Below, in pieces: positions 13,101-16,100 of a stretch of DNA of 64,000 nt (position 1 is its first letter; each line of letters begins with the position of its first letter). The stretch comes from Pocillopora damicornis. Its lineage: Eukaryota. Position numbers: made by a program. Location of the stretch: contig NW_020843886.1 in assembly GCF_003704095.1 (NCBI RefSeq), positions 1 to 64,000 of the forward strand, read 5' to 3'.

Positions 13101-16100
13101 AAATGGCAATCCAAAGTGAGGTAAAAATCATCTCTGAAATGGATTGTGGCGAATGTTTTGCCTTGGTCAGTCCTGCGGTAGGTAACACTTTTTCTCCTAA
13201 AAAAATTTTCGGTCTGAGTTATAATATTGCATTCTAATTTACTTTCTAGCATAAATTTGTTTGAATACTCTAGTTAGCAGTAAGTGCTTAACTCCGCATA
13301 GAGAGATGCAGGTTTATCCAGGGCCAGGGGTTGACAACCACAATACATTTAATAGTGGCTTACCCACTGTAATTAACCTGCTCAGTGTTGGGTTTGACTC
13401 TACCATAGAACCTACGGTTTACAACTCTTCTGAAAATAGGTCAGCTGGGCACCCTGTTTGCATTCTGCAATCCGTAAGTGCAAGTTTGGCTGAAAAATCT
13501 GTGAATCGATTCTTTTTTAATAGTCAACCACCATTGGCGTCCAACATCTACTTGCAAAAAGTGAGGAGAGGTTATTTCCTGGCGCTTGTGTCAAGCTGGT
13601 CACCACATATGTTGGAGAGCAAAACACTCTTCGTGAAGACAAAGTCAGGATGGCACTGCTTAGTGGAAAAGCGAGACTGGTCATTCTCATTCCTACCAAG
13701 GTATGGCTTTAGTACTAGTGATGTCTTAATAATAAAACTTCTGTGTTCGTATTGATTGAATCTCCCAAAAAAAAAAATGAAAATTTTTTTCTTCCTCAGT
13801 ACTGAAAACATTCATATAATTTCCTCTCTTCATTCTCAACCTCATTATTAAAAATTGCGAGTGCACTTACCATTCCAATTTGGCTTTACATAACAATATT
13901 TTATTTAATTGCTATTAACAACTGGTTATCAATTAATCAATTAATTGCTTTTATTCATGATCTTCTAATTAGTGTTTTCAGAGTTCCCTACTGACAGCAG
14001 TCTTGCGACTGGAGGCGTTACCTCTTAAGATAGTCAGTTGTTTCAAGTTGTAAATAACAAAAGAAACCAACATAAAGAACCCAATGATTTTCAGTCGGCA
14101 AAACGTTTTTTAGAATCTTAGAGAGAGCTTCTCTTCCTACAACACGTTGAAGTGCTAACTGCTGCTAGTAGTTGGATTATGACAATCCACGAGAGGTACT
14201 TCCTGGTTAACAATCATATGATTTTAACCTCCCACAATCGCGTGTAAAACCCAGAAAGCACTAATCAATAAAGGTAACTTTCTGTATTCTTAGGTTCATC
14301 ATACGCCAACCGATGGCCTTGAGAATCAAAACTATTCAGGTACAAAACTTAAAATTTAATTCACAAGTCCAGTTGGAATTTTTGTGATACAAGATTACCC
14401 TATGGAGCTTTACCTAGGTCTTAATTACAAGTCAAGTAAGGTTCTGGTGTTTTGACTTGCCAAATATCAAGCACTCAGGTCAGGGAACAGAATAGCTCAA
14501 TTGTTATGTNNNNNNNNNNNNNNNNNNNNNNNNNNNNNNNNNNNNNNNNNNNNNNNNNNNNNNNNNNNNNNNNNNNNNNNNNNNNNNNNNNNNNNNNNNN
14601 NNNNNNNNNNNNNNNNNNNNNNNNNNNNNNNNNNNNNNNNNNNNNNNNNNNNNNNNNNNNNNNNNNNNNNNNNNNNNNNNNNNNNNNNNNNNNNNNNNNN
14701 NNNNNNNNNNNNNNNNNNNNNNNNNNNNNNNNNNNNNNNNNNNNNNNNNNNNNNNNNNNNNNNNNAGAAAGAAAGAAAAATAGATGGCAGGATAGTTGTG
14801 TTTATTTAAAAGAAATTGTTCACTGATCCTTTTCATTTCCCATTTCAAAGTTACGGGTATGCCAAAACTGGACCGAGACGCCCTTCAAAGCTGTCACGTA
14901 GATCTTATTGCCAATATTGGGGACTTTACATCGTTATGTGCCTATCTTTATCAATACAATATCTTGACGGCCGATGATAAGGCATTTCTGCGAAGTTTTC
15001 CACGTCCATCAGATGGCATCGATCACTTGCTAATGATGATACCCAGAAAAGGGAATATTTTAGACATTTTCATACGTATCTTGCAGCAATCACGAGAAAA
15101 TCAAGAAGCTGCCAAACGTTTAGTGTTGAAACGTCTACAGTTACACAGAAAGACAGAGAGTAAATGACTTAATGTGTGATTGAATACATTTTAAAAATTG
15201 GTTGTTCACTACTCGACACAATGTTTCATTACAACTAGTTTTTCACAGGAAACAACACTCTGTCGTTATACACATTAATAACCAAGCAAGAACTCCTGCT
15301 TTGTACACATTGCTTAAACTTTATTAGCTTAAGATGTACAACCTCTGATATCCTCTATTCAGGACTTCAAACGCCTTATCCTGAACACTTTTTAAGATAA
15401 ACTACTACTAACGAAGTAATATGAATTAAAATACCTGGCAAAGAGTTTCATCTAGGGGTGAGAGAATTTCAGATGTTAAGATCCCTTAACGTACCAAATT
15501 ATCTGTGAACTTTTTACTTACCTTTTTGAAAATTTTTGTGAAATATGTCAGCGAGATTCGATCTCTATCTTAGTTTTTTGTCTGACTCAATCGATTAAAT
15601 TAAAACAAAAGGAAATATACACAGTATAATGCCTCTAGTCTATGGACGCTGAAGTTCACTCAATGGAACCTCATCTCTGATGATTATCAGGTTGAGTTCA
15701 GGTTGAGTTCAGGTTGAGTTCAGGTTGAGTTCAGGTTGAGTTCAGGTTGAGTTCAGGTTGAGTTCAGGTTGAGTTCAGGTTGAGTTCAGGTTGAGTATAA
15801 AGCTGGCAACTGAATGATGCAGTCAGAAATTTCTTTCTCTTTTCCCTTTCCACTCTTTACAACAGTGATATCTGCGATACTTGTGACTTGGTTTCCTTAT
15901 GAAGGAAGAAAGTAATAGTTGTGATTACTGGGAAGAAAACATCAGTTCCCCTACAGGAACAAAGTTCCTTGCATTTTCAAGTAGTTTTTTACTTCAAAAG
16001 AATAATAACTGACAACTTTACGACTCAATCCAGCTATACTGACCTTCATCCATTTGAAGGCTACTAAAACCTAACACCTCTCAGTAAGTGTAAACAACTC

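What the first reader, a model, noticed from the sequence alone, without database searches (positions are those of the whole stretch)
14851..15167. CARD exon inside the cluster: CARD-only protein or C-terminus of a UPA-CARD adaptor
Seen: an intact CARD ORF with its own ATG and a good acceptor 8 nt upstream. It is on the same strand as adaptor B, about 0.8 kb after its last identified exon, with a 256-N gap between. Inference: either a CARD-only regulator or a spliced UPA-CARD protein that could bridge DD-less ZU5-UPA receptors to a CARD caspase, replacing the DD-RAIDD link.
Basis: partly seen in the sequence, partly recalled or inferred. Interest (0 to 1): 0.68.

Follow-up and report, generated by a model that had tools for sequence, protein, structure and literature searches.

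The report
Last exon of a coral CARD adaptor
The CARD reading frame is real and is most likely the final exon of a multi-exon gene for a beta-domain-plus-CARD protein that corals and sea anemones share, an ordinary but so far uncharacterised cell-death or immune adaptor.

Summary
Window 14859-15167 (+) is an intact 102-codon ORF that passes Pfam's CARD cut-off. An AG lies 8 nt before the ATG, and the 256-N gap is at 14510-14765.

Three upstream + strand exons (about 12349-12470, 13004-13177, 13524-13700) and the CARD exon match cnidarian proteins of 312-426 aa. The match is in order, without indels at the junctions. These proteins carry the same beta-rich N-domain followed by a C-terminal CARD. 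They are RefSeq 'uncharacterized' models from Montipora, Acropora and Nematostella.

In those proteins the window's Met1 is an internal residue.

A direct 13700-to-14851 splice is out of frame. A 15-codon linker exon is still needed. The candidate 14294-14339 fits in length and phase but is unproven, and the exon could lie in the N gap instead.

The 'UPA' label is not established. Pfam finds nothing, and only one of two low-confidence models hit UNC5b and NLRP1-FIIND.

The joined model was never assembled, searched or folded; all work was exon by exon.

Interest is moderate: this is a new member of a known kind.

The parts
12349..12470 (+). Exon encoding the first strands of the N-domain. Its 5' end is unresolved because it abuts the N gap 12242-12341. 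Donor is TTG|GTAAGA, phase 0.
   Evidence: Sequence. N-domain HMM positions 4-34, E 6e-4. A6 profile positions 104-133, E 0.004. BLASTP to P0052 residues 168-195, E 2e-7.
13004..13177 (+). Exon of 58 codons, the middle of the N-domain. AG at 13002-13003, donor GCG|GTAGGT, phase 0 at both ends.
   Evidence: Sequence. A6 profile positions 132-197, E 6.6e-7. BLASTP to P0053 residues 164-220, 37% identity, E 1.9e-8.
13524..13700 (+). Donor is AAG|GTATGG, phase 0.
   Evidence: Conserved ORFs P0043-P0045 at 69-84% identity, with conservation ending at the donor. A6 profile positions 195-250, E 1.4e-4. BLASTP to P0053 residues 223-279, E 4.7e-7.
14294..14339 (+). Candidate bridging micro-exon of 46 nt (15 codons plus 1 base, G). 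AG at 14292-14293, GT at 14340-14341. Unverified.
   Evidence: It is one of 33 frame-compatible pairs among 566 AG..GT pairs, and one of 2 with the 46 nt that the relatives' linker predicts. Translation. It has no sequence similarity to the coral linker.
14510..14765 (.). Assembly gap of 256 N inside the last intron. It was left unfilled and could hide the bridging exon.
14849..14850 (+). AG acceptor, phase 1. One base carried over from the preceding exon joins the first two exon bases (TT); if that base is G the codon reads Val, the first residue of a Val-Thr-Gly-Met-Pro run. The relatives have this run as coding sequence just before the CARD.
   Evidence: Alignments. The A6 profile match starts here, at position 266.
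14851..15167 (+). CARD exon with stop codon. ATG at 14859, G at -3, TGA at 15165-15167.
   Evidence: Pfam CARD above cut-off. A6 profile E 1.9e-32. 44-46% identity over 94 residues to P0053 and P0052.
33613..33876 (+). Truncated second copy of the CARD exon, made by a tandem duplication whose junction falls inside the exon. It lacks about the first 31 codons and is not part of the gene.
   Evidence: blastn 14937-15176 against 33648-33884, 82% identity, and tblastn. Sequence. dN/dS 0.21. No Pfam family at E<=0.01.

Best explanation
The CARD ORF is the terminal coding exon of a gene on the + strand. Its upstream exons (about 12349-12470, 13004-13177, 13524-13700) encode a beta-rich domain of about 150 residues. 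The gene belongs to an anthozoan family of proteins built as disordered N-terminus, beta domain, short linker, then C-terminal CARD.

The inferred function is that of an adaptor. The CARD would recruit a CARD-bearing partner, such as a CARD caspase, by CARD-CARD assembly. The beta domain would supply binding or oligomerisation.

Shown: the CARD, the exons, their order, their splice phases, and their homology to fused proteins in other cnidarians.

Inferred: that this genome still makes the fused protein through a 46-nt bridging exon (candidate 14294-14339, or one hidden in the N gap), and everything about function.
For: (1) Profiles built from the long relatives were run against all 3484 ORF pieces of the window. 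The five best hits under the A6 profile are the CARD exon, its truncated copy, and three + strand pieces. Those three pieces and the CARD exon lie in order along the profile: positions 104-133, 132-197, 195-250 and 266-363. Searches gave the same pieces.

(2) Exon-by-exon BLASTP gives contiguous stretches of P0053: 138-161, 164-220, 223-279 and 298-391. The same pattern holds in P0052.

(3) All junctions read from the sequence have canonical AG and GT, are phase 0, and need no indel against P0052 or P0053.

(4) The relatives are real gene models or transcript-sized contigs. They are XP_068718180.1 (Montipora capricornis, 398 aa), XP_044176338.1 and XP_015776949.1 (Acropora, 379 and 380 aa), Nematostella LOC5517729 (312-340 aa), and P0052 (426 aa, on a 1724-nt contig).

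(5) The window's Met1-Pro2 is invariant in 9 of 9 of these proteins, where it is internal. The residues just upstream, read from the AG acceptor in phase 1, match their coding sequence.

(6) The missing linker is 15 residues, and a 46-nt AG..GT exon with the right phases exists at 14294-14339.

(7) Exon 13524-13700 and the CARD ORF each have a relative on a contig of 242201 bp, and each have one on a contig of 452326 bp. This suggests, but does not prove, that the two are linked in other genomes.
Against: No transcript was available.

The direct splice 13700 to 14851 is out of frame.

The coral linker motif is not detectable anywhere in the readable intron. The best intron piece ranks 216 of 4508.

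The candidate micro-exon is one of 33 frame-compatible AG..GT pairs and has no similarity to the relatives' linker.

All 21 close relatives (70-97% identity) are 99-136 aa. The word-index search for proteins of 180-2000 aa found none: 70 candidates, 0 scored. Most of these short relatives have no source name or accession, and several extend upstream of Met1 through a pyrimidine-rich, intron-like stretch. I therefore take them for unspliced ORF calls on genomic contigs.

The ATG has G at -3, and a TATA-like TATTTAAAA lies at 14803-14811.

An in-frame TAG at 13710-13712 and an AATAAA at 13731 follow exon 13524-13700. However, such hexamers occur at the chance rate: 240 found against 237 expected.
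Confidence: 0.65

Rival explanations
1. A CARD-only protein of 102 aa is translated from the ATG at 14859. It would come either from its own promoter in the last intron or after loss of the linker exon (gene fission). It would act as a decoy or regulator of CARD-CARD assemblies.
For: The ORF is intact with G at -3, and a TATA-like motif lies 48 nt upstream. The direct splice from 13700 is out of frame. The family's linker motif is absent from the readable intron. All 15 listed members of the ORF's 90% cluster are 102 aa (52 members, 40 read). dN/dS of 0.21 shows the CARD is under constraint.
Against: Met1 is an internal, invariant residue in 9 of 9 fused relatives, so its conservation says nothing about initiation. 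The conserved phase-1 AG and the coding-like residues before Met1 fit an internal exon. I take the database ORFs of about 100 aa for unspliced ORF calls on contigs, which cannot show splicing. No named relative is CARD-only.
Confidence: 0.2
2. The locus is a decaying gene. The linker exon is lost, the upstream exons end at the TAG just after 13700, and the CARD exon is no longer translated.
For: The linker motif was not found. A stop and an AATAAA lie right after the exon 13524-13700 donor. The region is being rearranged: a tandem duplication breakpoint lies inside the CARD exon of copy 2, which carries a TGA in this window.
Against: All four recognised exons are open with intact splice sites. 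The CARD has dN/dS 0.21. The 15 listed of 52 cluster variants all keep 102 codons. The 256-N gap can hide the missing piece.
Confidence: 0.1

Closest known systems
Uncharacterised anthozoan N-domain-CARD proteins: XP_068718180.1 (Montipora capricornis), XP_044176338.1 (Acropora millepora), XP_015776949.1 (A. digitifera), LOC5517729 / A7RRZ6 (Nematostella vectensis)
   Same: The order of parts is the same, and there is exon-by-exon similarity: 28-37% identity in the N-domain and 39-46% in the CARD. The same invariant Met-Pro opens the CARD.
   Different: The 15-residue linker of the coral proteins has no counterpart in the readable window sequence. The N-terminal disordered part was not located. 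None of these proteins has a described function, and no paper in the library holds their identifiers.
UPA-CARD C-terminal fragment of CARD8 and NLRP1 (FIIND-CARD)
   Same: A beta domain sits directly before a C-terminal CARD. CARD8's CARD is the best solved-structure match of the close-relative profile (E 3e-4). One model hit rat NLRP1 FIIND (E 5e-3) and UNC5b ZU5-UPA-DD (E 2e-4). The Atlas's nearest clusters carry CARD plus UPA-FIIND (score 0.79, a lead only). The oligomerising role of UPA-CARD is taken from the abstract of PMC7794386 as shown in the search listing.
   Different: There is no Pfam FIIND, UPA-FIIND, UPA or ZU5 match at E<=10. hhalign was not significant. The second model did not recover these folds. 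No ZU5 half, and therefore no autoproteolysis site, was found.
RAIDD/CRADD (CARD plus death-domain adaptor of the PIDDosome)
   Same: It is a small two-part adaptor with a CARD. RAIDD's CARD is the best solved-structure match of the long-relative profile (E 5.9e-6).
   Different: In RAIDD the CARD is N-terminal and the partner domain is a death domain (recalled from memory). Here the CARD is C-terminal and the partner is a beta domain. The CARD subfamily is not robust: CARD8 ranks first with one profile and RAIDD with the other.
Vertebrate CARD-only proteins (COP/CARD16, INCA/CARD17, ICEBERG/CARD18; recalled, not from a call)
   Same: A stand-alone CARD of about 100 aa would look like this ORF.
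   Different: Those proteins arose by duplication of a caspase-1 prodomain. This CARD has upstream homologous exons on the same strand and is fused in its named relatives.

Membership tests
CARD (Pfam PF00619, death-fold superfamily) | Sequence match to the family profile above the curated cut-off | tested here: met
   27.9 bits against a cut-off of 23.9, E 2.5e-06, model positions 1-77 of 85.
CARD (Pfam PF00619, death-fold superfamily) | Six-helix bundle fold | tested here: inconclusive
   The window protein itself was not folded. In relatives P0052 and P0053 (44-46% identical) the CARD region is modelled as helices at pLDDT about 75-93. It superposes on Apaf-1, caspase-9 and CARD8 CARDs with TM 0.73-0.83, normalised by the target.
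Anthozoan N-domain-CARD proteins (XP_068718180.1 and relatives) | N-domain and CARD encoded in order on one strand | tested here: met
   Colinear profile hits at positions 104-133, 132-197, 195-250 and 266-363. Contiguous BLASTP stretches.
Anthozoan N-domain-CARD proteins (XP_068718180.1 and relatives) | One continuous reading frame through linker and CARD | tested here: inconclusive
   The direct splice is out of frame. The candidate 46-nt exon restores the frame but is one of 33 candidates and shows no similarity. There is a 256-N gap in the intron. The joined model was not built.
UPA domain / FIIND (CARD8, NLRP1, UNC5, PIDD, ankyrin) | Match to Pfam UPA, UPA-FIIND, FIIND or ZU5 profiles | tested here: not met
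   There were no such hits at E<=10 in the three window exons or in P0052, P0053 and P0061, nor at E<=1 in the 9 members of A6.
UPA domain / FIIND (CARD8, NLRP1, UNC5, PIDD, ankyrin) | UPA-like beta-sandwich fold next to a death-fold domain | tested here: inconclusive
   The P0052 model has mean pLDDT 51, and 50-75 in the N-domain. Its top Foldseek hit is UNC5b 3g5b (E 2.1e-4), with NLRP1 FIIND 7crv_D at rank 4. The P0053 model has mean pLDDT 49, and neither fold is among the rows listed, which show only generic beta sandwiches.
UPA domain / FIIND (CARD8, NLRP1, UNC5, PIDD, ankyrin) | ZU5 half with an autoproteolytic site before the UPA | tested here: not met
   Only one beta domain of about 150 residues precedes the CARD in the models, and no ZU5 or FIIND match was found.
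CARD-only proteins | Independent transcript with no other domain | not testable with these tools
   No transcript data could be reached. The indirect evidence points the other way.

The most novel reading that the evidence does not exclude
The N-domain is a highly diverged UPA domain, making this an ancient, ZU5-less UPA-CARD protein. It would be the cnidarian counterpart of the active C-terminal fragment of CARD8 and NLRP1. It would work in trans with the neighbouring, co-duplicated TNFR-type receptors, whose cytoplasmic tails carry a ZU5-like domain. In effect this would be a 'split FIIND': the receptor's ZU5 holds the UPA-CARD until receptor engagement or degradation frees it to seed a CARD-caspase filament.
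Probability: 0.1. Interest if true: 0.8.

Novelty: new member of a known kind. Interest (0 to 1): 0.4.

Why it matters
The result settles how to annotate this locus: it is a multi-exon adaptor gene, not a lone CARD. It also links the locus to a conserved but unnamed anthozoan protein family with a domain that Pfam does not cover.

The gene sits between TNFR-type receptor genes that have ZU5-like tails, in a tandemly duplicating block. That arrangement makes a concrete, testable hypothesis about how early animals wired death receptors to CARD caspases.

If the beta domain proved to be a UPA, it would push the UPA-CARD module of inflammasomes back to cnidarians. The one paper I read on this describes FIIND-CARD only for mammals and fish (passages of PMC11508797).

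Tried and rejected
(1) Pfam on the upstream ORFs at E<=10 gave nothing relevant.

(2) Solved-structure sequence searches were run with exon ORFs 12965-13234 and 13524-13700, the exon profile A2, and the receptor tail ORF. They returned only noise at E 0.19-1.7.

(3) The Atlas search with exon 13524-13700 gave no usable hit.

(4) I considered that the frame from 14293, which has a Tyr-Ala-Asn-x-Trp run before a stop, might be a decayed remnant of the coral linker. I rejected this: the piece ranks 820 of 4508 against a linker profile.

(5) I considered poly(A) hexamers as evidence for separate transcription units. I rejected this: 240 were found against 237 expected.

(6) hhalign of the N-domain against the FIIND, ZU5 and UPA segments of P0051 and P0069 gave E 0.059 and 0.49-0.71, which is not significant.

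(7) A mixed alignment of exon fragments with full-length relatives (A4) was misaligned by MAFFT and was not used.

(8) No complex prediction was run, because no binding claim is made.

(9) The word-index search for longer relatives found none. This was later overturned by the exhaustive profile search.

Full report
**Observation.** Window 14859-15167 (+) reads as 102 codons from ATG to TGA. The in-frame upstream stop is at 14793-14795. Pfam places residues 6-83 on CARD model positions 1-77 of 85, with 27.9 bits against a cut-off of 23.9 (E 2.5e-06). An AG at 14849-14850 follows a pyrimidine-rich stretch, so a spliced exon would begin at 14851, 8 nt before the ATG. The N run is 14510-14765, 256 bases. 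I scanned all 348 stop-to-stop ORFs of 50 aa or more against Pfam at E<=0.01. This ORF was the only CARD hit. The other hits were:
- TNFR cysteine-rich repeats on the minus strand (9479-9793 and 18166-19395)
- two BMT5-like methyltransferase ORFs
- an FDX-ACB piece
- a Carb_kinase piece
- a cadherin ORF
- ten weaker matches below their Pfam cut-offs, which I take for noise

No ZU5, UPA, FIIND or Death domain appeared at that threshold.

**The ORF is a real coding sequence.** The word-index search found 21 relatives of 99-136 aa at 70-97% identity (21 of 22 candidates). The ORF's own 90% cluster has 52 members, and the 15 listed are all 102 aa (40 read). A second, partial copy lies at 33613-33876 (82% nucleotide identity over 240 nt). 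dN/dS between the two copies is 0.21 over 65 codons.

**Stand-alone or fused?** The first evidence favoured a stand-alone protein: no relative of 180-2000 aa was found by the word-index search (70 candidates, 0 scored). That result was overturned by the exhaustive profile search with alignment A1, which found 36 proteins at E<=0.001. Several were longer proteins with this CARD type at the C-terminus:
- P0052, 426 aa, CARD at 330-425, E 8e-21
- P0053, 398 aa, E 2.5e-20
- P0061, 325 aa

I scanned 23 of the 36 against Pfam, with these results:
- 22 carry a CARD
- 2 carry FIIND plus UPA-FIIND
- 2 carry a caspase domain
- 1 carries NB-ARC/NACHT-type domains
- 1 (P0060) is an unrelated insect-allergen repeat protein

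P0052, P0053 and P0061 showed only the CARD.

Cluster look-up names these proteins:
- P0053 is XP_068718180.1 of Montipora capricornis.
- P0054's cluster holds XP_044176338.1 (Acropora millepora, 379 aa) and XP_015776949.1 (A. digitifera, 380 aa).
- P0061 is Nematostella vectensis EDO45662.1 / A7RRZ6, with isoforms of 312 and 340 aa.
- P0052 sits on a 1724-nt contig, the size of a transcript.

All are annotated 'uncharacterized', 'predicted' or 'CARD domain-containing'. No paper in the library holds their identifiers. The window is therefore from a cnidarian, probably a stony coral. I did not try to name the species.

**Exon-by-exon mapping.** The joined sequence was never built, searched or folded. 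A profile of nine long relatives (A6) was run against all 3484 ORF pieces of the window. Its five best hits were:

| Window piece (+) | Profile positions | E-value |
|---|---|---|
| CARD exon (piece 14796-15164) | 266-363 | 1.9e-32 |
| Truncated copy 2 (piece 33613-33876) | 293-364 | 7.7e-13 |
| 12965-13234 | 132-197 | 6.6e-7 |
| 13524-13709 | 195-250 | 1.4e-4 |
| 12342-12491 | 104-133 | 0.004 |

An N-domain-only profile with the CARD cut off finds the same three upstream pieces in the same order. BLASTP of each exon against P0053 gives residues 138-161, 164-220, 223-279 and 298-391, and the pattern is the same in P0052.

Reading the DNA gives canonical junctions:
- the first exon ends at 12470, donor GTAAGA, phase 0
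- 13004-13177, with AG before it and donor GTAGGT, phase 0 at both ends
- 13524-13700, with AG before it and donor GTATGG, phase 0 at both ends

The junctions line up with P0052 and P0053 without indels. Exon 13524-13700 is itself conserved at 69-84% in three database ORFs, and similarity ends right at the donor. Two of those ORFs lie on contigs of the same lengths (242201 and 452326 bp) as two CARD relatives. This suggests linkage elsewhere, though identity of the contigs is inferred from length alone.

**Met1.** Met1-Pro2 is invariant in 22 of 22 close relatives, but also in 9 of 9 long relatives, where it is internal. Its conservation is therefore no evidence for initiation. The residues just upstream of Met1, read in phase 1 from the AG, match coding residues of the long relatives.

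**The gap in the model.** The donor at 13700 is phase 0 and the acceptor at 14851 is phase 1. A direct splice reads 16 codons and stops. The relatives have a 15-residue linker between the two parts (profile positions 252-266). This predicts an extra exon of 46 nt. In 13701-14509 there are 566 AG..GT pairs of 10-300 nt:
- 33 are frame-compatible
- 7 of the 33 end in G
- 2 of the 33 are 46 nt long

The best is 14294-14339, with 13 of 20 pyrimidines before the AG and 6 of 9 donor matches. Its peptide has no similarity to the coral linker. A linker profile finds nothing in the readable intron: the best intron piece ranks 216 of 4508. A tempting look-alike in another frame ranks 820. The bridging exon may equally lie in the 256-N gap, which I did not fill.

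**What the N-domain is.** Two AlphaFold models were made, of P0052 and of P0053, each with a 5-row alignment. Both show about 130-165 disordered residues, then an all-beta domain of about 150 residues at pLDDT 40-75, a floppy linker, and a confident helical CARD.
- For P0052, Foldseek against the PDB gave UNC5b ZU5-UPA-DD first (3g5b, E 2.1e-4) and rat NLRP1 FIIND fourth (E 5e-3), followed by CARDs.
- For P0053, it gave only generic beta sandwiches and CARDs among the rows listed.

Pfam finds no ZU5, UPA or FIIND at E<=10. hhalign against the FIIND segments of P0051 and P0069 is not significant. The Atlas's nearest clusters to the N-domain are CARD plus UPA-FIIND proteins, at score 0.79, which is a lead only. 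'UPA' is therefore a lead and not a result.

The CARD subfamily is also unsettled. CARD8 is the best solved match of the close-relative profile (E 3e-4). RAIDD is the best match of the long-relative profile (E 5.9e-6).

**Context.** The gene lies between minus-strand TNFR-type genes. The ORF after the TNFR repeats (17383-18033) and its paralog (37072-37692) both give ZU5 as best Pfam match, but below the cut-off (E 0.095 and 0.039, cut-off 21 bits).

A tandem duplication (14937-33633 against 33648-49615) copies a block of genes:
- a TNFR-type gene
- a paralogous N-domain gene (exons 23154-24114 and 39184-39736)
- an FDX-ACB piece
- a BMT5-like gene

Its junction cuts the CARD exon, which is how the truncated copy 2 arose.

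**Mechanism.** Shown: domain content, gene structure and family membership. Inferred: the protein is an adaptor whose CARD recruits CARD partners by homotypic assembly, with the beta domain providing binding or oligomerisation. The analogy is to the UPA-CARD fragments of CARD8 and NLRP1; I saw only the abstract of PMC7794386, in the listing. FIIND-CARD is described in one comparative paper for mammalian and fish NLRP1 only (passages of PMC11508797). ZU5 and CARD are reported as NLR-associated domains in cnidarians (passages of PMC8260672). The supplements of these papers were not seen.

**Verdict.** The fusion reading is favoured (0.65), with CARD-only at 0.2 and a decaying locus at 0.1. The UPA label and the bridging role are open.

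Noticed in passing
window 14937-33633 and 33648-49615: A tandem segmental duplication of about 16-19 kb, with blocks at 74-89% identity. It carries a TNFR-type gene, an N-domain paralog, an FDX-ACB piece and a BMT5-like gene. Its junction falls inside the CARD exon.
   Followed up: partly
window 33574-33879 (+): A chimeric ORF of copy 2: new 5' sequence fused to the last roughly 70 codons of the CARD. A database ORF (P0022, 101 aa) reads it through, but this window has TGA at 33610-33612 where P0022 has Trp. It may be a polymorphic pseudogene.
   Followed up: partly
window 17383-19395 (-) and 37072-37692 (-); also 9479-9793 (-): TNFR-type receptor genes. A 410-codon ORF has TNFR_c6 repeats (E 5.8e-21). 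The next ORF gives ZU5 as best Pfam match below the cut-off in both paralogs (E 0.095 and 0.039). No death domain was found.
   Followed up: partly
window 2238-2486, 23154-23366, 23818-24114, 39184-39396, 39485-39736 (+): Paralogous exons of the same N-domain: 23818-24114 at E 1e-4, the others weak at E 1-4. The two paralogs whose exon end was read (23818-24114 and 39485-39736) end at a GT donor. No second CARD of this type lies downstream, and their 3' exons were not identified.
   Followed up: partly
window 13701-13736 (+): Read-through of the exon 13524-13700 donor stops after 3 codons (TAG at 13710-13712), and an AATAAA lies at 13731-13736. A CARD-less isoform by intron retention is possible, but the hexamer frequency is at the chance level.
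   Followed up: partly
window 43567-44001; 56843-57095 against 58071-58325: A 435-nt self-complementary (palindromic) stretch at 77% identity, and an inverted repeat pair at 92.5% identity. These may be transposon ends.
   Followed up: no
window 32076-33714 (-), 47875-49685 (-), 30311-30730, 44989-45321, 53448-53624 (+), 60494-61561 (+): Other genes in the window: duplicated BMT5-like rRNA methyltransferase genes, duplicated FDX-ACB pieces (of the kind found at the C-terminus of phenylalanyl-tRNA synthetase), a Carb_kinase piece, and a multi-cadherin ORF.
   Followed up: no
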